From assembly GCA_943354475.1 (NCBI GenBank), contig CALRBT010000004.1, forward strand, positions 1 to 56,874: a stretch of 56,874 nt of DNA, in the 5' to 3' direction. Positions within the stretch are counted from its first letter, which is position 1. Every line of letters starts with the position of its first letter. The notes beneath the pieces are model-generated. The model saw only the letters and a list, made by a program, of their open reading frames with translations. It was not told where the DNA came from and did no database searches. This DNA is from Parcubacteria group bacterium. GTDB taxonomy: Bacteria; Patescibacteriota; Minisyncoccia; Phycocordibacterales; CALRBT01. This document shows, one piece after another, positions 2,603 through 51,659 of this stretch. Made by a program: the position numbers and the translations under genes.

Positions 2603-3799
2603 ATGGCAGCAGAAGCATTTGACCGTTCAAAGCCACACCTCAATGTGGGAACAATCGGCCACGTTGACCACGGAAAGACTACTCTTACCGCGGCTATTCT
2701 CCATGTCCTCGACATGGCTGGCAACAAAGTAAAGATGCGCGGAGTTGGTGAAATCGACTCAGCGCCTGAAGAGAAGGCTCGCGGTATTACTATCGCCCTT
2801 TCTCACAACGAGTACGAGACAAAGGCTCGTCACTACGCGCACATCGACGCGCCAGGACACGCCGACTACATTAAGAACATGATTACTGGAGCTGCGCAGA
2901 TGGACGGTGCAATCCTCGTGGTTGCAGCAACTGACGGTGCGATGCCACAGACTCGTGAGCACATCCTTCTTGCAAAGCAGGTTGGGGTACCAAAGATTAT
3001 CGTTTTCCTTAACAAGGTTGATATGGTTCCTGATAAGGACATGATCGATCTCGTTGAAGAAGAAATCCGAGAGCTTCTTACAAAGAACGGCTTTGATGGA
3101 GCGAATGCTCCTGTTATCAAGGGCTCAGGTCTTAAGGCACTTGAGGCAAAGTCACTCGATGATGAGTATGCAAAGGGTGTACTTGCTCTCGCTGACGCAC
3201 TCGACAATTACTTCCCAGTACCAGAACGTGATCTCGACAAGCCATTTCTTATGCCAGTTGAAGACATCTTCACTATTGAAGGACGTGGAACCGTGGTTAC
3301 TGGACGCGTTGAGCGTGGACGAATCAAGGTTGGTGAGGAAGTTGAGATTGTTGGTATCAATACAACAGTTAAAACAACCGTTACTGGTATTGAAATGTTC
3401 AACAAACAGCTTACCGAAGGTCAGGCTGGAGACAACGCCGGAGTACTCCTCCGAGGTCTTAAGAAAGACGACATCACACGAGGTCAGGTTCTTGCAAAGC
3501 CAGGTTCAGTAACACCTCATACAGATTTCGAAGCTGAGGTATACGTACTTACCAAAGAAGAAGGAGGACGACACACACCATTCTTCTCAGGATATAAGCC
3601 ACAGTTCTACATTCGAACTACTGACGTTACTGGAGACGTAACCCTAAGCGAAGGTGTTGAAATGGTTATGCCAGGAGATACCGCAAAGTTTAAGGTAAAG
3701 CTTATGGCACCAGTTGCTCTCGAAGACAACACACGATTTGCTATCCGCGAGGGTGGGAAAACCGTGGGCGCCGGCGTTGTTACCAAAATCGTCGCCTAG
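2603..3799 (+). CDS. tuf: Elongation factor Tu
   Basis: [19 protein letters not shown] and NKVD motifs; GGAG Shine-Dalgarno upstream. Confidence 0.98.
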
Positions 3800-3800
3800 G

Positions 3801-3925
3801 TAGAATTCACACAGCTGGCGCACTTCTTTGTCGCTACGTTGTTCATTTCCTCCGCCGTACGTTTAGTACGTCTACAGAAATGAACTTCCTTGCTCCTCGA
3901 ATTGCATCCATCTGAGTAAATTCTA
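3801..3925 (-). repeat. Palindromic repeat family, copy A
   Basis: The reverse strand carries TGGATGCAATTCGAGG ... GACAAAGAAGTGC inside an imperfect outer stem (tagaatt...aattcta); homologous to copies at 5889, 27829, 44740 and 45752. Confidence 0.75.
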
Positions 3926-3977
3926 TAAGTCTTAATGAATCTAAAACTAAGAAATTAATTATTAATAGACACGAATT

Positions 3978-4358: not shown

Positions 4359-4390
4359 GTTAGGGTATAGGGCGTAGACATTAGTAAAAT

Positions 4391-4440
4391 ACCCAACCAC
4401 AACAAAAGCCTCCGCAAGGAGGCTTTTGTTGTGGTTGGGT
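4391..4440. terminator. Long hairpin terminator after rpsJ
   Basis: Perfect 23-bp arms acccaaccacaacaaaagcctcc / ggaggcttttgttgtggttgggt with a GCAA loop. Confidence 0.75.
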
Positions 4441-4457
4441 GTCAGAATTGGGGGGTA

Positions 4458-4485
4458 TTGACACCTTTTTTATATTATGTAATAT
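4458..4485 (+). promoter_or_regulatory. Promoter for the structured RNA candidate
   Basis: TTGACA, 16-nt spacer, TAATAT; lies directly before the first stem at 4491. Confidence 0.6.
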
Positions 4486-4490
4486 ATCAA

Positions 4491-4912
4491 TCGGCGGGGG
4501 ACGAGGCACAACGGCATACTGGAAACAGACACCGAACGCCTCCCCGTCGAAACCTGGACCCGCGGTGGTCTAGGTAAACCCATTGGAGAGAATCCAATGT
4601 CTGCTTATGAAAGCACAGGGATCGAGGCCCTGTAAGCTTCCAGAGGCCAAACTCAAACAGAGGGGAAATCAAAATCCGAAGAGAGCGAAGTACGACCTTG
4701 CCAATCAGCATCTAGTTTTCGCTGATTGGCTGAGGCTGAATCTGTCAAATTTCCCATTATGGGAATGCCCTAACTCCGGACTCAAGGGCGTCTGCAACTA
4801 GTGCTAGCAGATACTTGAGCGCCGCGTGATCATGTGGCAATGGCAAAGTGGGGCGAGTTCGACGGAATGGATTAGTCCATCGGCGAACCGCCCCAAAGCC
4901 ATCAGTTCTTTT
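4491..4912 (+). ncRNA. Unclassified large structured non-coding RNA candidate
   Basis: About ten consecutive stems by eye, e.g. 4491-4499/4542-4550, 4552-4560/4567-4575, 4580-4586/4593-4599, 4700-4709/4721-4730 and a long 4840-4902 hairpin. It has a GAAA tetraloop, sits between a promoter and a T-tract, and contains no convincing ORF. Confidence 0.55.
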
Positions 4913-4947
4913 TAGATAAACACGCAGACTTCCATTGGAAGACCAAC

Positions 4948-4978
4948 CCGCACTCGTATTTTCGAGGGCGGTGTTTTT
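4948..4978 (+). terminator. Hairpin plus T-tract after the RNA candidate
   Basis: ccgcactcg / cgagggcgg stem followed by tgttttt. Confidence 0.5.
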
Positions 4979-4987
4979 GATTTTATA

Positions 4988-5016
4988 TTGACAAGGGTTG
5001 TTTTGCGGTGTAATAA
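4988..5016 (+). promoter_or_regulatory. Promoter for the 5044 ORF
   Basis: TTGACA, 17-nt spacer, TAATAA. Confidence 0.6.
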
Positions 5017-5043
5017 GATGATGGAAAACTATTGAGGTGTGTC

Positions 5044-5718
5044 ATGGAAAACGATTTTTACGAATCTGAAACCGCTGTTTGGGAAACAGTGACAAGGGAG
5101 CAGTTGTTGCACCACAAGAGATTATTCCACAAGCTATTTCCTCTCGGTCATCAGGAGAGCATAAGGAGTCTTATCCAAAATCTTCGGAACCCTTCGTTCC
5201 GTGGGTTACTTATGGCGGAAAATTGGGGGGCATACATAGGAGATATTCACCCCAGAGCATTTGATTTGTTGGCCAAGTACGGACAGGATTATCATCCGCA
5301 TGTGTGGAAACGACCACTTGATTCGTCGCTTGATAGAAAGTGCTATATAAACTCATGGGCTATGGTCGAGAATGACTATCGACACCGTAACCGTCATACC
5401 TCGAAAGTCGTTGAGCCCATAGTCTATGTAGAGGGGGTTGCTTTCGGTGTGCGAGTCTATCCGATGCTTCATGGGTGGAACGCCAGAAACCTAGCTTCTC
5501 GAAGAGCATATGACACCACTCACCATGCTGTGTGTCGGTGGACAAGATATCTTGGTATTCCATTTACCCGGGATGAGTATCGGAAAATACGTGGTTTTGG
5601 ATTTAGTAACCTCTTGGCCGTTGATAAGTTTCCTAGGTTTGAAACAAGGATTACTAGATTGCTTGCCAAGAGGTTTGGAGAGAGGAATATGCCTTTATGC
5701 AGGGTCACCGAAAGGTGA
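5044..5718 (+). CDS. Hypothetical protein with a transglutaminase/papain-like Cys-His-Asp motif set
   Basis: KCYINSW, YVEG, LHGW, YDTT and RYLGIPF motifs in the expected order; GAGGTG SD precedes the ATG at 5044 (the track starts at TTG 5032). Confidence 0.6.
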   Translation: MENDFYESETAVWETVTREQLLHHKRLFHKLFPLGHQESIRSLIQNLRNPSFRGLLMAENWGAYIGDIHPRAFDLLAKYGQDYHPHVWKRPLDSSLDRKCYINSWAMVENDYRHRNRHTSKVVEPIVYVEGVAFGVRVYPMLHGWNARNLASRRAYDTTHHAVCRWTRYLGIPFTRDEYRKIRGFGFSNLLAVDKFPRFETRITRLLAKRFGERNMPLCRVTER

Positions 5719-5725
5719 CCCTTTG
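5701..5725 (+). terminator. GAAA-loop hairpin overlapping the ORF stop
   Basis: agggtcacc-gaaa-ggtgaccct followed by a T-rich tract. Confidence 0.6.
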
Positions 5726-5738
5726 CCTTTGCCACGAT

Positions 5739-5766
5739 TTGCATCTTTTTTATACTCGTGTATACT
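5739..5766 (+). promoter_or_regulatory. Promoter restarting the S10 cluster at rplC
   Basis: TTGCAT, 16-nt spacer, TATACT. Confidence 0.5.
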
Positions 5767-5888
5767 CTCTCCTAACTCGCACACTCGAGTCGTCTACGTT
5801 CCAGCAAGTGGAACCAATGGAAAATTCAATCCGCATGGACTGTTTCTTCCTTTAGCGGTTTTTTTGTTGGAAAAGTACACGTCGTGTC

Positions 5889-6014
5889 TAGAATTTGTGG
5901 ATTTGGATGCAATTCTAGGCGCAAGCGAGGCTTGTGACTAAAATGTAGGTGAATCTACATTACAGGAACAAATGAGCGAAGCAACAACGAAGTGCCTCAA
6001 ATCCACAAATTCTA
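5889..6014 (+). repeat. Palindromic repeat family, copy B
   Basis: Perfect 17-bp outer arms tagaatttgtggatttg / caaatccacaaattcta; core nearly identical to the reverse complements of copies D and E. Confidence 0.85.
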
Positions 6015-6015
6015 C

Positions 6016-6627
6016 ATGAAATTCATACTAGGAACAAAATTAAACATGACCCAGATCTTTGATGAAAAAGGTCTTGTTCACCCTGTTACCATTCTCGAAG
6101 CAAAACCATCAGTCATTACCCAGGTTAAGACTGAGAATACTGATGGGTATACTGCTGTTCAGGTTGGCTACGGCGCTGGTAAAGACAAGAACGTCAATAA
6201 AGCACAAAAAGGTCACATGAAAGAGACTGGCATCTTCCGAACACTTAAGGAGTTCCGACTTGATGGAGATGATATGGCACACAATAAAGGAGATTTAATC
6301 GACCTTTCAAAATTTGCCGTTGGGGACACAGTAACCATTTCTGCTATTTCAAAAGCCAAAGGTTTCCAGGGCGTTATCAAGCGCCATGGATTCAAAGGGG
6401 GTCCTCGTTCTCACGGCCAGAAGCATTCAGAGCACGCCCCGGGATCAATCGGTGCGGTATGGCCACAACGCGTCCTTAAGGGAAAGCGCATGGGTGGACG
6501 CATGGGTGGAGATCGAATTACGGTCAAGAACCTTAAGGTTGCGGCAATTGACCTTGAAAATCACAAAATAATGATTCAAGGCGCTATTCCGGGACGACGA
6601 GGTACACTTGTCGAAGTGCGCGGCTAA
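6016..6627 (+). CDS. rplC: 50S ribosomal protein L3
   Basis: MKFILGTKLNMTQIF and KGFQGVIKRHGF motifs; true start ATG 6016 (the track extends into the repeat). Confidence 0.97.
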   Translation: MKFILGTKLNMTQIFDEKGLVHPVTILEAKPSVITQVKTENTDGYTAVQVGYGAGKDKNVNKAQKGHMKETGIFRTLKEFRLDGDDMAHNKGDLIDLSKFAVGDTVTISAISKAKGFQGVIKRHGFKGGPRSHGQKHSEHAPGSIGAVWPQRVLKGKRMGGRMGGDRITVKNLKVAAIDLENHKIMIQGAIPGRRGTLVEVRG

Positions 6628-20290: not shown

Positions 20291-20325
20291 TTTAGGGGAT
20301 AGGTTTTAGGTTATAGGTGTTAGGA

Positions 20326-20370
20326 TAAAGCAACCCCCTCACTCGCAAGGCGAGTGAGGGGGTTGCTTTA
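20326..20370. terminator. Long hairpin terminator after secY
   Basis: Perfect 21-bp arms taaagcaaccccctcactcgc / gcgagtgagggggttgcttta. Confidence 0.75.
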
Positions 20371-20444
20371 TTGACAGTATTGATATAATAGTTTACAGTA
20401 TTAAAGGTGGATTCCCTCCAACCCTTTGTACACAGGAGCTCTCG

Positions 20445-27504: not shown

Positions 27505-27556
27505 GAGCGACACAAAACAAAAAACGCTGGAAGGCGTTTTTTGTTTTGTGTCGCTC
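27505..27556. terminator. Long hairpin terminator after ndk
   Basis: Perfect 23-bp arms gagcgacacaaaacaaaaaacgc / gcgttttttgttttgtgtcgctc. Confidence 0.75.
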
Positions 27557-27828: not shown

Positions 27829-27953
27829 TTAGAGCTTTAGATTTAGATGCAGTTCTAGGAACAAGGAAGACGGTTTCTGGAGGCGTACTAAGTCGTACGA
27901 CGTAAGAAACTGACGACGTAGTGACAACGAAATGCACTAAATATAAACTCTAA
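27829..27953 (+). repeat. Palindromic repeat family, copy C
   Basis: TAGATGCAGTTCTAGG ... GACAACGAAATGC core homologous to copy A; imperfect outer stem ttagagctttagattta / taaatataaactctaa. Confidence 0.75.
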
Positions 27954-42955: not shown

Positions 42956-43114
42956 ATGATTTCAGTTTCAGAGTACCGAAAGGTACTCAAAGACGACGAG
43001 AGCCCAGACGAGATTATACAGCGTCGTATAGCCTATTTAGAGGCCTTCTGCCGCAGTGTGGCGCGTATTGAACTACAAGCGTATGTCAAAGTCATCAAAA
43101 ATGAAACAGCATAG
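42956..43114 (+). CDS. 52-aa ORF overlapping the recombinase start (below the ORF-track cut-off)
   Basis: Translates as MISVSEYRKVLKDDESPDEIIQRRIAYLEAFCRSVARIELQAYVKVIKNETA; protein-like helical composition. Confidence 0.5.
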   Translation: MISVSEYRKVLKDDESPDEIIQRRIAYLEAFCRSVARIELQAYVKVIKNETA

Positions 43115-44741
43115 TCCGCCACAGTCACTTCAAGAGCTGAAAAGCTCGGGCGTTACGATTTACGGCCTTATTTATTGCAGAGTTTCGTCCGATAGACAGG
43201 CCACCGAGGGTCACGGCTTGGAAAGTCAGGAGCAACGTTGCCGTGAATACGCAAAACTAAACGGGTTCATCGTTGATAAAGTTTTTGCCGATAGCGCCTC
43301 AGGGGGTGGAGAATACACTTCACGAAAAAAACAGGTGGCACTACTTGAGTATGTAAAAGCGCACCCCAACAAAGTTTTCGTGGTCATAATTGACGATATT
43401 TCTCGTTTTGCGAGAGATGTGCAAGGTCACACACAGTTCAAGCTGCTTCTAAGGGAGCAGGGCGTAGAACTTACTTCTCCAAATTTTAATTTTGAAAATA
43501 GTCCCGAGGGGCAACTGATTGAAACCGTGATGGCTTCGGTAAGCCAGTATCATCGTACAGGAAATGCTCGCCAAGTTATCCAAAAACAGCTTGCTCGCAT
43601 GAACCTTGGCTGTTGGCCGTTTGCCTCAGTGCGCCCATTTAAAATGATGAAAGATGCAAACTATGGAAAAATTCTTACAGCGCAGTATCCCGACGTTGAA
43701 TATGCTAAAGAAGCCTTGGAGCGGTTCGCTAATGGCGAATTTCTTACGAAGGCTGATGCGTGCAGATTTCTCGCGGGAAAAGGCTATTGGAGGGACAACA
43801 GGCGCCCTGAAAAACATATTGATGCATTTACCTACTTGGCTAAGAGTATTCTAAACGCAGGGTGGGTAGAGTATACAAAGTGGGGTTTCAAGCCAATTGA
43901 GGGAAAGCACAAGGGCTTTATCTCTATGGAAACTTACGAAAAGGTTCAGAAGCGCCTAAAACGTGAGGGGTTAAGTAATCGTATACGTAAAGATATTCAC
44001 CCTGATTTCTTCGCTCGCGGTCTAGTTCTGTGCGATGGTTGCTCGTACCCATTCAGGGGAGCGTACTCAAGGGGTAGGACAAAACGCTATCCGTACTATG
44101 TCTGCCAAACACACGGGTGCCAATTTTATGGAAAATCAATTCGTAAAGATATTCTTGAAGGCCAATTCAAACAGCTACTTTCTGAAACCGCGTTGAAGGA
44201 AGATGTCGGCGACCTCGTTAGTATAATGTTTGACCGCGTTTGGAAAGATGAGGTTATCAATGTGAAAACTAATGAAGCCATTGTTGCTTCGCACAAATCA
44301 TCGCTTGAACATAAGCTAGAACAGCTTACAGAGGCCGTGTTTGGTGCAAAATCGCCTGCACTGAAAAAGATATATGAAAGCCAAATGGAAAGACTTGCAA
44401 AGGAGCTTGATAGCCCCGACCTTGCAAGCGTCGGGGAAATAGACTTCTCTGTACCTTATAGAACCGCTCTAGATAAAGCCAAGGGATTGCTAAAAAGCCC
44501 TTTAGAATATTGGGAAAAACTAGATGTACGTGAACAACATCGTCTTTTTTACTTCATCTTTGATGAGAAATTACCCTACACACCGAACGTTGGGTATAGA
44601 ACCGACAAAATACGAACAGCCATAAGGCTTTTTGAGAGCTTTGTGGCTGTAAGTTCTACTGATGTGGAGATGGGCGGAGTCGAACCGCCGTGCGGGAAAG
44701 TAGCTAGAATGCATCTACCGTGTGTAGCAGATTTGATTTAG
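43083..44741 (+). CDS. Large serine recombinase (integrase)
   Basis: Catalytic YCRVSS and DDISRFAR motifs; recombinase domain; zinc ribbon CDGC...YYVC...GC; coiled coil. Start is ATG 43083 or 43101. The last 24 codons are read from antisense tmRNA. Confidence 0.9.
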   Translation: MSKSSKMKQHSPPQSLQELKSSGVTIYGLIYCRVSSDRQATEGHGLESQEQRCREYAKLNGFIVDKVFADSASGGGEYTSRKKQVALLEYVKAHPNKVFVVIIDDISRFARDVQGHTQFKLLLREQGVELTSPNFNFENSPEGQLIETVMASVSQYHRTGNARQVIQKQLARMNLGCWPFASVRPFKMMKDANYGKILTAQYPDVEYAKEALERFANGEFLTKADACRFLAGKGYWRDNRRPEKHIDAFTYLAKSILNAGWVEYTKWGFKPIEGKHKGFISMETYEKVQKRLKREGLSNRIRKDIHPDFFARGLVLCDGCSYPFRGAYSRGRTKRYPYYVCQTHGCQFYGKSIRKDILEGQFKQLLSETALKEDVGDLVSIMFDRVWKDEVINVKTNEAIVASHKSSLEHKLEQLTEAVFGAKSPALKKIYESQMERLAKELDSPDLASVGEIDFSVPYRTALDKAKGLLKSPLEYWEKLDVREQHRLFYFIFDEKLPYTPNVGYRTDKIRTAIRLFESFVAVSSTDVEMGGVEPPCGKVARMHLPCVADLI

Positions 44742-45181
44742 GACTTGCGAATTTGACACATTTCGTCGTTGCTTCGCTCATTTGCTCCCGCAGAGTAGAT
44801 TCACCTACACTTTGGTCACAAGCCTCACTCGCGCCTAGAACTGTATCCAAATTCGCAAGTCCTGTTTAGAAATATTACGTAGAGAATATGCAAAACCGTA
44901 ATATGTCGATTCTCTTTATTTTGAATTACTCGCGAGAAACTGAGTAATTCTAGTTCCATTTTATTACACCCGATTCAACCTATGAAACTTCAGTTGATCG
45001 AACGCCACTTAGGCTAAAGCGTAAGTGGAAGCAAAGGTATTTCCCGTAAAGTACGGAGAAGCTACCGATTTTGCTTTTGAAAGTACGTTTGCACGTAGCT
45101 TGTTAAGCGTTTTTTAGGAAGGACGCTCACTTCCACACGGCACATAAAAGACTAATTTTCCTGTCGATGCCTGGCATCCCC
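44665..45181 (-). ncRNA. ssrA: tmRNA (about 517 nt, containing a palindromic insertion)
   Basis: 5' GGGGAUG pairs with 3' CAUCUCC-A giving G3:U70; T-arm GGCGG-UUCGACU-CCGCC; pk1 ggaag/cttcc and agcgt/acgct; tag ORF 45092-45009 = ANVLSKAKSVASPYFTGNTFASTYALA; next to smpB. Confidence 0.92.
44740..44863 (-). repeat. Palindromic repeat family, copy D (inside tmRNA)
   Basis: Perfect 16-bp arms aggacttgcgaatttg / caaattcgcaagtcct; core shared with copies B and E. Confidence 0.85.
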
Positions 45182-45751: not shown

Positions 45752-45877
45752 CAGGACTTTCATAGGTAGCGCATTTCTTTGTTGCAAGCTCCGTTTGCTC
45801 CCGCAGAGTAGATTCACCTACACTTTGGTCGCAAGCCTCGCTCGCGCCTCGAACTGCATCCACTTATGAAAGTCCTG
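45752..45877 (-). repeat. Palindromic repeat family, copy E (ftsH leader)
   Basis: Arms caggactttcataggt / acttatgaaagtcctg (one mismatch); core tttgctcccgcagagtagattcacctacactttggtc identical to copy D. Confidence 0.85.
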
Positions 45878-51561: not shown

Positions 51562-51635
51562 CCACCCTTAGCTCAGTTGGTTAGAGCACAGAGCTTATAC
51601 CTCTGCGGTCCTTGGTTCGAGTCCAAGAGGGTGGA
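51562..51635 (+). tRNA. tRNA-Ile, anticodon UAU
   Basis: Acceptor CCACCCT/AGGGTGG plus discriminator A; D-arm GCTC/GAGC; anticodon stem CAGAG/CTCTG with loop CT-TAT-AC; T-arm CTTGG-TTCGAGT-CCAAG; CCA not encoded. Confidence 0.92.
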
Positions 51636-51659
51636 CTAAAATGTTTAAGTAGCGGAAGG

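What the first reader, a model, noticed from the sequence alone, without database searches (positions are those of the whole stretch)
3801..3925. Five-copy, about 125-bp palindromic element with a conserved core and co-varying outer stems
Seen: copies at 3801-3925 (-), 5889-6014 (+), 27829-27953 (+), 44740-44863 (-) and 45752-45877 (-). All share TRGATRCARTTCKAGG at one end and RACRAMGAARTG at the other. Two internal subtypes exist: gtac..gtac (A, C) and gtaggtgaatctac (B, D, E). The outer arms of about 16 bp differ in sequence between copies yet stay self-complementary, with termini resembling YAGRAHTT. Copies occur in both orientations relative to transcription. Established: REP, MITE and Rickettsia palindromic elements are analogous dispersed palindromes. 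Inference: a non-autonomous mobile element whose outer stem is selected or generated as a structure, which is unlike a fixed transposon TIR. No mobilising enzyme is in this window.
Basis: partly seen in the sequence, partly recalled or inferred. Interest (0 to 1): 0.75.

Follow-up and report, generated by a model that had tools for sequence, protein, structure and literature searches.

The report
Mobile structured hairpin element family
The five repeats are copies of a roughly 125-base hairpin element that has inserted cleanly at gene borders, and once inside the tmRNA gene, of a tiny-genome bacterium. It belongs to a large, apparently undescribed family found in many bacterial phyla, and no transposase for it can be found.

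Summary
They are five of about 36 copies in this 786-kb genome (Parcubacteria-like, Patescibacteria).

The family is patchy in Patescibacteria. Its invariant core, R-G-UUC-KAGGCG...CAAC-RAM-GAA-A, also occurs in Bacillaceae, Clostridia, Thermodesulfobacteriota, Myxococcota, Bacteroidota, Elusimicrobiota and Wolbachia. It matches no Rfam 15 family, and I found no paper on it.

- **Structure:** 91% of cells pair and 40 of 41 pairs show compensatory change. One strand always folds better (81 of 83 copies).
- **Mobility:** close relatives have empty sites for copies A, B, D and E. Copy D is a clean insertion in tmRNA that includes the outer stem and has no target duplication.
- **Orientation:** the folding strand lies on the negative-GC-skew strand in 60 of 70 copies.
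- **Position:** the 3' end of the folding strand is flush with an ORF border in 27 of 37 copies, and it usually supplies a TAG stop codon.
- **Enzymes:** the genome has no Y1/RAYT, no TnpB and no multi-copy transposase.
- **Modules:** outer stems are specific to each locus, while inner modules are exchanged between copies.
- **Rare sense copies:** these sit upstream of RNase J-like, PNPase, DEAD-box helicase, smpB and rplC.

How the element moves is still unknown.

The parts
3801..3925 (-). Copy A. It lies antisense to tuf-rpsJ, starting 1 nt after the tuf stop codon (TAG 3797-3799). The probable ancestral TAAG is still present at 3926-3929.
   Evidence: Relatives L206 and L210 have only a 40-44-nt tuf-rpsJ spacer and no element.
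3895..3910 (-). 5' half of the conserved core of copy A (TGGATGCAATTCGAGG).
   Evidence: AGUUC.AGG.G is at least 90% conserved in 83 cross-phylum copies.
3821..3832 (-). 3' half of the conserved core of copy A (GACAAAGAAGTG). It pairs GAA/UGC with UUC/GCA across a covarying R.R mismatch.
3856..3870 (-). Apical hairpin of copy A (CGTAC-TAAAC-GTACG). This is the exchangeable apical module, one of about three types in the genome.
   Evidence: Module swapping between orthologous copies is shown.
5889..6014 (+). Copy B. It lies sense to the operon and ends 1 nt before the rplC start codon (ATG 6016-6018).
   Evidence: Relatives L206 and L210 have no element at ...AAAA^ATGAAATTC.
27829..27953 (+). 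Copy C. It lies sense and ends 4 nt before the ATG (27958) of an RNase J-like beta-CASP/RMMBL gene.
44740..44863 (-). Copy D, a 124-nt insertion (AGGACTTGCG...CGCAAGTCCT) in the tmRNA gene. It lies between pseudoknot 4 and the 3' strand of helix 2, sense to tmRNA, with no target duplication.
   Evidence: Relatives show the exact empty site TCTAAAC^AAATYAAATC in L219 and L222.
44662..45181 (-). Host tmRNA gene (520 nt, against 370-450 nt in 37 relatives). ARAGORN misses it, probably because of the insert.
45752..45877 (-). Copy E, in the divergent ftsH-smpB spacer. It lies sense to smpB, and its 3' end is flush with the conserved block AAGTAGGSACATTATACAC.
   Evidence: It is absent in L219-L223.

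Best explanation
Each repeat is a copy of a non-autonomous mobile element of about 125 nt that consists of a single long hairpin.

**Shown**
- The whole hairpin, outer stem included, is the unit that inserts.
- In the one case that can be read to the base (copy D), insertion is seamless and makes no target-site duplication.
- Copies are strongly oriented: the better-folding, purine-rich strand lies on the negative-GC-skew (lagging) strand, so it is antisense to most genes.
- The 3' end of that strand usually sits flush against an ORF border. That border is a stop codon, often the element's own terminal TAG, or for the rare sense copies a start codon.
- The same strand folds better in almost every copy in every phylum.
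- No transposase for the element is present in the genome.

**Inferred**
- A single-stranded form of that one strand (ssDNA or RNA), carrying the invariant internal loop R-G-UUC-KAGGCG / CAAC-RAM-GAA-A, is what some conserved trans-acting factor recognises. That factor may be a host housekeeping enzyme, or it may come from another replicon.
- After insertion the outer stem is kept paired because a closed stem brings the two flanks back together. This insulates the host transcript: tmRNA stays intact, and a stop codon and the next start codon stay adjacent.
- The inner modules are homogenised or swapped between copies by recombination. This is why the stems look hypervariable compared with the cores.
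- A few copies in the 'wrong' (sense) orientation may have been kept as 5'-leader hairpins of RNA-decay and ribosome-rescue genes.
For: **Copy number and spread**
- About 36 copies in G000.
- 14 of 41 genomes of the same order hold 1-38 copies, and 17 of 301 genomes of the phylum have a hit.
- Only 2 hits in about 1 Mb of 80 related valS loci.
- Full-length homologues occur in many phyla.

**Structure**
-.

**Strand asymmetry**
- 27 of 30 own copies and 81 of 83 cross-phylum copies fold better on the model strand, by 7-10 kcal/mol on average. About half of that comes from G.U pairs.
- G.U 178 against A.C 42 in the paired columns.
- Sense and antisense copies show the same asymmetry.

**Empty sites**
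-.
- Copy D is exact, with no duplication.
- No target duplication is detectable across 34 copies.

**Orientation and position**
- Model strand on the negative-skew strand in 32 of 37 copies and 28 of 33 copies; p = 8e-10 combined.
- Flush 3' end in 27 of 37 copies, against 2 of 37 for the 5' end (p = 1.5e-9). Other genomes show the same pattern.
- TAG is the stop codon of 17 of 23 flush genes, against 33% genome-wide.

**No enzyme found**
- Y1_Tnp and TnpB are absent from G000, G021 and G028.
- Reverse transcriptase does not track the element.
- The genome has no multi-copy protein families.
- No protein recurs as a neighbour in 80 loci.

**Module exchange**
-.
Against: - No mobilising activity, intermediate or transcript has been observed.
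- The better-folding strand lies on the leading-strand template, which is not the strand exposed as ssDNA in the IS200/IS605 model. A simple ssDNA-at-the-fork mechanism therefore does not fit as it stands.
- Replication and transcription direction are confounded. The skew rule holds in 86% of copies and the antisense-to-gene rule in 76%.
- A strand-neutral count that includes loop positions gives only G.T 96 against A.C 79.
- The exact insertion boundary is certain for copy D only. Copy A could also be read as a 4-nt duplication, TAGG/TAAG.
- The flush position may partly reflect selection in a very compact genome rather than targeting.
Confidence: 0.6

Rival explanations
1. The element is a PATE- or REP-like derivative of the IS200/IS605 superfamily. 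A Y1 (HUH) transposase or RAYT would move it as single-stranded DNA at replication forks, with or without TnpB.
For: - Insertion is seamless and makes no target duplication.
- Precise loss is possible: a mini-palindrome remains in L220 at the copy D site.
- Orientation is strongly tied to replication direction.
- Recognition appears to be of hairpins on one strand.
- RAYT-like Y1 proteins are common in the order, in 26 of 41 genomes.
Against: - G000 (about 36 copies), G021 (22) and G028 (19) have no Y1_Tnp hit in six-frame searches, and TnpB is also absent.
- The better-folding strand is on the opposite strand to the one expected for IS608-type elements.
- The whole element is one hairpin rather than two subterminal hairpins.
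- No conserved 4-5-nt target flanks one end.
Confidence: 0.12
2. The hairpins are chiefly a family of functional cis-acting RNA elements, such as processing or stability sites or leaders, that the cell maintains. On this view mobility is incidental or ancient.
For: - An orthologous copy in two species (flank 82% identical) keeps its outer stem and basal core at 94-97% identity.
- The internal loop is invariant across phyla.
- In G000 the sense copies precede RNase J-like, PNPase, DEAD-box helicase, smpB, an RNase_H_2-like exonuclease and rplC, and one lies in tmRNA. The enrichment has p of about 2e-5, assuming at most 20 such genes.
- Four of the five copies that break the orientation rule are among these.
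Against: - The closest relatives lack copies A, B, D and E, so these copies are recent and not needed by the genes.
- About 76-86% of copies are antisense to the surrounding genes, although the sense strand is the one whose structure is kept.
- Sense copies in other genomes precede unrelated genes: dnaE, recA, bipA, smc and methyltransferases.
Confidence: 0.12
3. A smaller mobile core inserts into the loops of hairpins that already exist at each locus (terminators or REP-like stems), so the outer stem is host sequence.
For: - Core and arm identities are uncorrelated.
- Copy E and the copy at C10:10768 share an identical 62-nt core tract but have different stems.
- Orthologous copies keep the stem while the apical module changes.
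- The 3' arm of copy E weakly resembles native sequence in L219.
Against: - The empty site for copy D in L219 and L222 has no stem, so the full stem came in with the element.
- No solo stems of the TAGRAYTT...AARTYCTA type exist in the genome. Its many hairpins are a different kind, A/T-tract terminators.
- The outer stems share a consensus, so they are homologous to one another.
Confidence: 0.08
4. The element is a classic DDE-type MITE: a deletion derivative of an insertion sequence with terminal inverted repeats, moved by cut-and-paste transposition.
For: - The termini are partly conserved and inverted, (T)AGRAYTT...AARTYCT(A).
- The size is right, the copies are intergenic, and expansions occur in bursts.
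Against: - There is no target-site duplication.
- The genome has no transposase or multi-copy protein.
- Conservation across phyla lies in the interior, not in the ends.
- The strand and orientation bias is not expected of a double-stranded cut-and-paste element.
Confidence: 0.04

Closest known systems
Hairpin-forming bacterial MITE-like repeats (Neisseria Correia/NEMIS, enterobacterial ERIC/IRU, pneumococcal RUP and BOX, Bacillus cereus bcr1)
   Same: These are 100-160-nt non-coding dispersed repeats, mostly intergenic, that fold into long hairpins when transcribed. They can supply stop codons or other signals at gene borders, and they expand in bursts in particular lineages. (From my own knowledge, plus reviews PMC2229807 and PMC3184786, which appeared.)
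   Different: Those families have fixed terminal repeats, target duplications (TA, or TTTAT for bcr1), and a narrow host range tied to an insertion-sequence family. This element has no duplication and no parent insertion sequence. It has an interior core conserved across phyla, one strand that always folds better, and a replication-linked orientation.
REP/REPIN elements with RAYT, and IS200/IS605-derived PATEs
   Same: Recognition rests on palindromes, there is no target duplication, the biology is strand-specific and linked to replication, and the elements are placed after genes.
   Different: REPs are 20-40 nt with a GTAG or CGTC head and need a RAYT gene. Here the unit is a 125-nt hairpin with several domains, and three genomes rich in the element have no Y1 gene. 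The favoured strand is also the opposite one.
Rickettsia palindromic elements (RPE) and other palindromes found inside structural RNA genes
   Same: They occur in reduced genomes, are tolerated inside functional genes (RPEs have been reported in tmRNA and in protein genes), and have no recognisable transposase.
   Different: There is no sequence similarity. RPEs often insert in frame within coding sequence, whereas this family stays at ORF borders and has a core conserved in many phyla.
Integron attC sites and the folded CTX-phage attP (single-stranded hairpin recombination substrates)
   Same: The structure, not the sequence, of a 60-150-nt imperfect palindrome on one strand is recognised. 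These sites lie directly after a gene's stop codon, and their orientation relative to replication matters.
   Different: The R''/R' boxes (RYYYAAC / GTTRRRY) are absent, the copies are not in cassette arrays, and no integron integrase context is present. The element itself is what moves.

Membership tests
Any Rfam 15 RNA family | Score at or above the family's gathering threshold, or at least E <= 1 | tested here: not met
   cmscan of the window found only tmRNA and a tRNA. A permissive scan of 10 loci that hold copies gave no hit on the element.
REP/REPIN | A RAYT (Y1 HUH transposase) gene in the genome | tested here: not met
   PF01797 gives 0 matches in G000, G021 and G028, which hold about 36, 22 and 19 copies.
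REP/REPIN | Short (20-40 nt) palindrome with a GTAG or CGTC head, often in inverted pairs | tested here: not met
   The unit is a single hairpin of about 125 nt with an internal-loop core, and its termini are (T)AGRAYTT.
IS200/IS605-derived PATE | Insertion without target duplication; seamless ends | tested here: met
   The empty site for copy D is exact, and no duplication signal appears in 34 copies.
IS200/IS605-derived PATE | TnpA (Y1) and/or TnpB present; conserved 4-5-nt target 5' of the left end; two subterminal hairpins | tested here: not met
   no enzymes; no conserved flank; one hairpin spans the whole element.
Classic MITE (DDE transposon derivative) | Terminal inverted repeats plus a target-site duplication, and a related autonomous insertion sequence | tested here: not met
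   The ends are inverted and partly conserved, but there is no duplication. No full-length element carries the core or the ends, and the genome has no paralogous proteins.
Integron attC | R''-L''...L'-R' boxes (RYYYAAC / GTTRRRY); arrays next to an intI gene | tested here: not met
   The boxes are absent from the consensus, and the copies are dispersed singly. IntI was not searched for.
Self-cleaving ribozymes or group I/II introns (as an explanation for tolerance inside tmRNA) | Match to a known catalytic core | tested here: not met
   No Rfam hit. Catalysis itself cannot be tested with these tools.
Structured single-stranded nucleic acid element (general) | Covariation that supports the helices; one strand favoured | tested here: met
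   covariation; strand asymmetry.

The most novel reading that the evidence does not exclude
The element would be a 'structured transposon' that needs no transposase of its own.

- A single-stranded hairpin of one polarity, whose paired tips hold its 5' and 3' ends together, would be joined seamlessly into the nascent lagging strand or at some other nick by conserved host replication or repair enzymes.
- Those enzymes would recognise the invariant internal loop.
- This would account for the lack of a target duplication, the need for pairing right to the tips whatever the sequence, the orientation tied to replication, and the spread across phyla.
- In this genome a few copies in the reverse orientation would then have been taken up as shared 5'-leader hairpins. 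These would couple expression of the RNA-decay and ribosome-rescue machinery (RNase J-like, PNPase, DEAD-box helicase, SmpB/tmRNA) to the cell's load of hairpin RNA.
Probability: 0.12. Interest if true: 0.9.

Novelty: new variant of a known kind. Interest (0 to 1): 0.72.

Why it matters
Dispersed palindromic repeats are familiar, but this family combines features that no described family has together:
- an interior core conserved from Patescibacteria to Bacillaceae and Myxococcota
- seamless insertion without a target duplication
- one strand that always folds better
- an orientation tied to replication
- docking exactly at stop and start codons
- expansion to about 36 copies in a 786-kb genome with no transposase

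If the mobilising factor is a housekeeping enzyme, this would be a new route of DNA mobility. It would also be a cheap source of gene-border hairpins in the most streamlined bacteria.

The element also has practical consequences for annotation. It breaks tmRNA detection, since ARAGORN missed the gene here, and it sets the annotated stop codons of many genes.

Tried and rejected
- **Known RNA family:** Rfam at the gathering threshold and at E <= 1 gave nothing.
- **Annotated homologues:** blastn of the Bacillaceae variant against plasmid and phage collections gave nothing.
- **Linked protein:** clustering the ORFs of 80 cross-phylum loci showed no recurrent neighbour.
- **Autonomous parent:** a search for the core halves outside known copies found only one truncated copy.
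- **Transposases:** TnpB and Y1 are absent. Reverse transcriptase is present in G000 but absent from G021 and G028, and it is common in genomes without the element. The genome has no multi-copy proteins.
- **Target duplication:** k = 2-5 is not above the shuffled expectation, apart from a borderline k = 2.
- **Pre-existing 'solo' stems:** none found.
- **Promoter or terminator role:** the terminal TAGAAT resembles a -10 box in a few copies, but it is not conserved, and no U-tract follows the hairpin. This is left open.
- **RNA-decay association in other genomes:** not seen.
- **Ribozyme, T-loop, sarcin-ricin or K-turn readings of the core:** these were considered from memory only. None fits well enough to claim.
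- **Searching the relatives' metagenome records with the model:** the records are not held.
- **Literature:** five searches and two papers named no such family.

Full report
**1. Observation**

They align over about 128 nt. Each has:
- an outer stem of about 18 bp that varies between copies but stays paired
- a conserved core, GGATGCARTTCKAGG...RACRAMGAARTGC
- a variable inner stem-loop of two types

Each copy folds as one long hairpin, with z-scores of -4.2 to -6.6. RNAalifold finds 41 pairs, 24 of them with compensatory changes among only five sequences.

**2. Size and spread of the family**

The window is contig C4 of a 786-kb, 98%-complete genome. The names on the closest EF-Tu and SmpB homologues place it in Parcubacteria/Paceibacterota, Patescibacteria.

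A covariance model built from the five copies (R1) finds about 36 copies in this genome. The wider distribution is patchy:
- 14 of 41 genomes of the same order hold 1-38 copies each, and every one of those genomes is in a different family.
- 17 of 301 genomes of the phylum have a hit, under stricter filters.
- About 1 Mb of 80 related valS loci from metagenomes holds only two copies.

An exact-pattern scan of one genome per species for the core hit not only Parcubacteria and Saccharibacteria. It also hit Bacillaceae, Brevibacillus, Clostridia (Wukongibacter), Thermodesulfobacteriota, Myxococcales, Bacteroidota, Elusimicrobiota, a Wolbachia and others. R1 aligns most of these end to end at the same length of about 125-130 nt.

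The parts conserved in at least 90% of copies are AGUUC.AGG.G and CAAC.A.GAA.U. These form an internal loop between two helices, next to a covarying R.R mismatch. The outer arms are specific to each lineage.

No Rfam 15 family matches, even at E <= 1. Plasmid and phage collections gave nothing. Five literature searches and two papers named no such family.

**3. Structure and strand**

On 83 cross-phylum copies:
- 91.1% of cells pair, against 61.5% when shuffled and 34-40% when the partner is slid.
- 40 of 41 pairs show double changes.
- The covariation score is 0.664 against 0.171.

The alignment is model-fitted, so it leans towards the structure; the MAFFT-based result and the fold z-scores do not depend on the model.

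A test that ignores strand labels shows that the same strand is always the better folder. This holds for 27 of 30 own copies (mean difference 7.2 kcal/mol) and for 81 of 83 cross-phylum copies (9.9 kcal/mol, or 4.5 with G.U pairs forbidden). In the paired columns G.U outnumbers A.C by 178 to 42. A cruder palindrome alignment that includes loop positions gives 96 to 79.

Copies that lie sense and copies that lie antisense to their host genes show the same asymmetry. It therefore belongs to the element and was not imposed by local transcription. It also runs against the direction expected from replication-linked mutation bias (inference).

**4. Mobility**

*Copy D.* This copy lies inside the tmRNA gene. 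The gene is 520 nt long, against 370-450 nt in 37 relatives. Alignment with the closest relatives gives an exact empty site: TCTAAAC^AAATYAAATC in L219 and L222, against TCTAAAC[AGGACTTGCG...CGCAAGTCCT]AAATCAAATC here. The inserted unit is therefore the whole hairpin, including its perfectly paired tips, and nothing is duplicated.

A more distant relative, L220, has the 14-nt mini-palindrome AGGATGTAAATCCT at exactly the same position. This could be a remnant of another insertion, which would make the site a hot spot. It could equally mean the insertion was ancestral and was later lost precisely in L219 and L222.

*Copies A, B and E.* Relatives with 96% identical EF-Tu have a 40-44-nt tuf-rpsJ spacer and nothing before rplC. 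Relatives with 86-93% identical SmpB lack copy E. R1 finds no copy at all in the roughly 87 kb fetched from these relatives.

*Copy at C2:33687.* This copy fills the entire spacer from the valS stop codon to the start codon of the next gene. Relatives have 18-25 nt of unrelated spacer there.

Across 34 copies there is no target-duplication signal.

**5. Placement rules**

| Rule | Count |
|---|---|
| Model (better-folding) strand on the negative-GC-skew strand, G000 | 32 of 37 |
| Same, in two other families (G027, G035) | 28 of 33 |
| Combined significance | p = 8e-10 |
| Gene next to the model 3' end is on the opposite strand | 53 of 70 (76%) |
| Model 3' end flush (within 5 nt) with an ORF border | 27 of 37 |
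| Model 5' end flush with an ORF border | 2 of 37 (p = 1.5e-9) |

Genes are mostly co-oriented with replication, so the replication and transcription explanations for the orientation cannot be separated here.

The flush borders break down as follows:
- For 22 antisense copies, the border is the stop codon of the gene that reads into the element.
- For the sense copies, the border is the start codon of the next gene. Examples are copy B (TTCTA-C-ATG), the copy at C2:33687 (TCCTA-C-ATG) and copy C (4 nt away).

Other genomes show the same asymmetry. TAG is the stop codon of 17 of 23 flush genes, against 33% genome-wide (p = 7e-5). The element's terminal TAG has therefore often become the stop codon.

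At copy A the protein's C-terminus is unchanged, and the probable old TAAG still sits on the far side of the element.

One reading, which is inference, is that a closed hairpin keeps a stop codon and the next start codon side by side. On that view only flush, fully paired insertions are tolerated in so compact a genome. That does not explain why it is always the same end of the element that is flush.

**6. No enzyme found**

- Y1/RAYT (PF01797) is common in the order but absent from G000, G021 and G028, which hold about 36, 22 and 19 copies.
- TnpB is absent.
- Reverse transcriptase is present once in G000 but absent from G021 and G028, and it is frequent in genomes without the element.
- The genome has no multi-copy protein families.
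- Nothing recurs next to the element in 80 loci.
- No longer element carries the core.

**7. Why the stems look 'generated'**

Among 28 copies, core identity and arm identity are uncorrelated (r = 0.06). Some pairs have 91% identical cores and 50% identical arms. Copy E and the copy at C10:10768 share an identical 62-nt tract and then diverge, which is a mosaic pattern.

Two orthologous copies in different species, L117 and L144, have flanks that are 82% identical. Their outer stem and basal core are 94-97% identical, but their apical 60 nt are of different types. The genome has no solo outer stems.

Together with copy D, this points to an outer stem that arrives with the element and then stays at its locus. 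The inner modules are exchanged between copies by recombination or gene conversion.

About eight copies also carry an extra ACCCAGTAGGTC-hairpin-GAGG module, inserted into the core loop.

**8. The sense copies**

In G000 the minority of copies that lie sense to the next gene precede the following genes:
- rplC
- an RNase J-like beta-CASP gene
- smpB
- a DEAD-box helicase gene
- PNPase
- an RNase_H_2-superfamily exonuclease gene
- a PrsW protease gene

One further sense copy lies in tmRNA.

Four of the five copies that break the skew rule are those before rplC, the RNase J-like gene, PNPase and the helicase gene. The enrichment for RNA-decay and rescue genes has p of about 2e-5 if the genome has at most 20 such genes, which is my assumption.

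Sense copies in other genomes do not show this enrichment, and the closest relatives lack copies B and E. If it is real, it is a recent, lineage-specific co-option.

**9. Verdict**

The element is a member of a large, cross-phylum and apparently undescribed family of hairpin-shaped, non-autonomous mobile elements.

It behaves most like the hairpin MITE and REP class. However, it fails the defining tests of each named family: it has no target duplication, no RAYT or TnpB, no parent insertion sequence and no attC boxes.

How it moves, which single-stranded form is recognised, and why its 3' end docks at ORF borders remain open. Earlier notes of this scan on other windows of the same genome reached a similar description. 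I treated them as leads only.

Noticed in passing
window 43056-44741 (+), overlapping tmRNA 44662-45181 (-): A 561-aa large serine recombinase (Resolvase plus Zn_ribbon_recom domains) runs antisense into the last ~80 nt of the tmRNA gene. It ends at a TAG created at the junction of copy D. This suggests a genomic island or prophage integrated at ssrA.
   Followed up: partly
G000 C2:9874, C2:35832, C1:75107, C1:62395, C1:111012, C3:47934, C5:28360 and C5:28257: An extra module of 25-50 nt, ACCCAGTAGGTC-hairpin(loop TGCT)-GAGG, is inserted at TTCKA^GG in the core loop of about eight copies. It is sometimes doubled or on the 3' side, and it was never seen outside an element. It may be a nested mini-insert or an optional third helix.
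   Followed up: partly
whole genome, for example window 4391-4440, 27505-27556 and 20325-20371: There are dozens of perfect 20-30-bp palindromes of the form AAACAAAAAC..GC-loop-GC..GTTTTTGTTT after genes. They look like bidirectional intrinsic terminators and are a separate hairpin class, unrelated to the element.
   Followed up: no
window 4359-6015: Between rpsJ and rplC this genome has about 1.2 kb more than its relatives, including ORF 5032-5718 (228 aa, no Pfam hit). A conserved block at 5737-5802 upstream of rplC is shared with the relatives and may be a ribosomal-protein leader.
   Followed up: partly
L220, about 5880-5900 (tmRNA of a relative): A 14-nt mini-palindrome, AGGATGTAAATCCT, sits at exactly the nucleotide where copy D is inserted here, and it has the same AGGA...TCCT tips. 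It could be a remnant of an independent insertion or an excision footprint.
   Followed up: partly
L117 14-142 compared with L144 5059-5187: These are orthologous element copies in two species, with flanks 82% identical. The outer stem and basal core are 94-97% identical, which is more conserved than the neighbouring coding sequence. The apical module has been replaced by another type.
   Followed up: yes
window 44662-45181: ARAGORN does not report this tmRNA, although Infernal scores it at 86 bits. The 124-nt insert probably defeats the tmRNA detector, so tmRNA could be wrongly annotated as missing in genomes like this one.
   Followed up: partly
window 51562-51636: A tRNA-Ile with anticodon UAU.
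   Followed up: no
G012 (same order, 7 element copies): The tmRNA family gives only a weak hit there (E = 2.9e-4), whereas almost all other relatives score above 80 bits. The gene may be disrupted or highly divergent.
   Followed up: no
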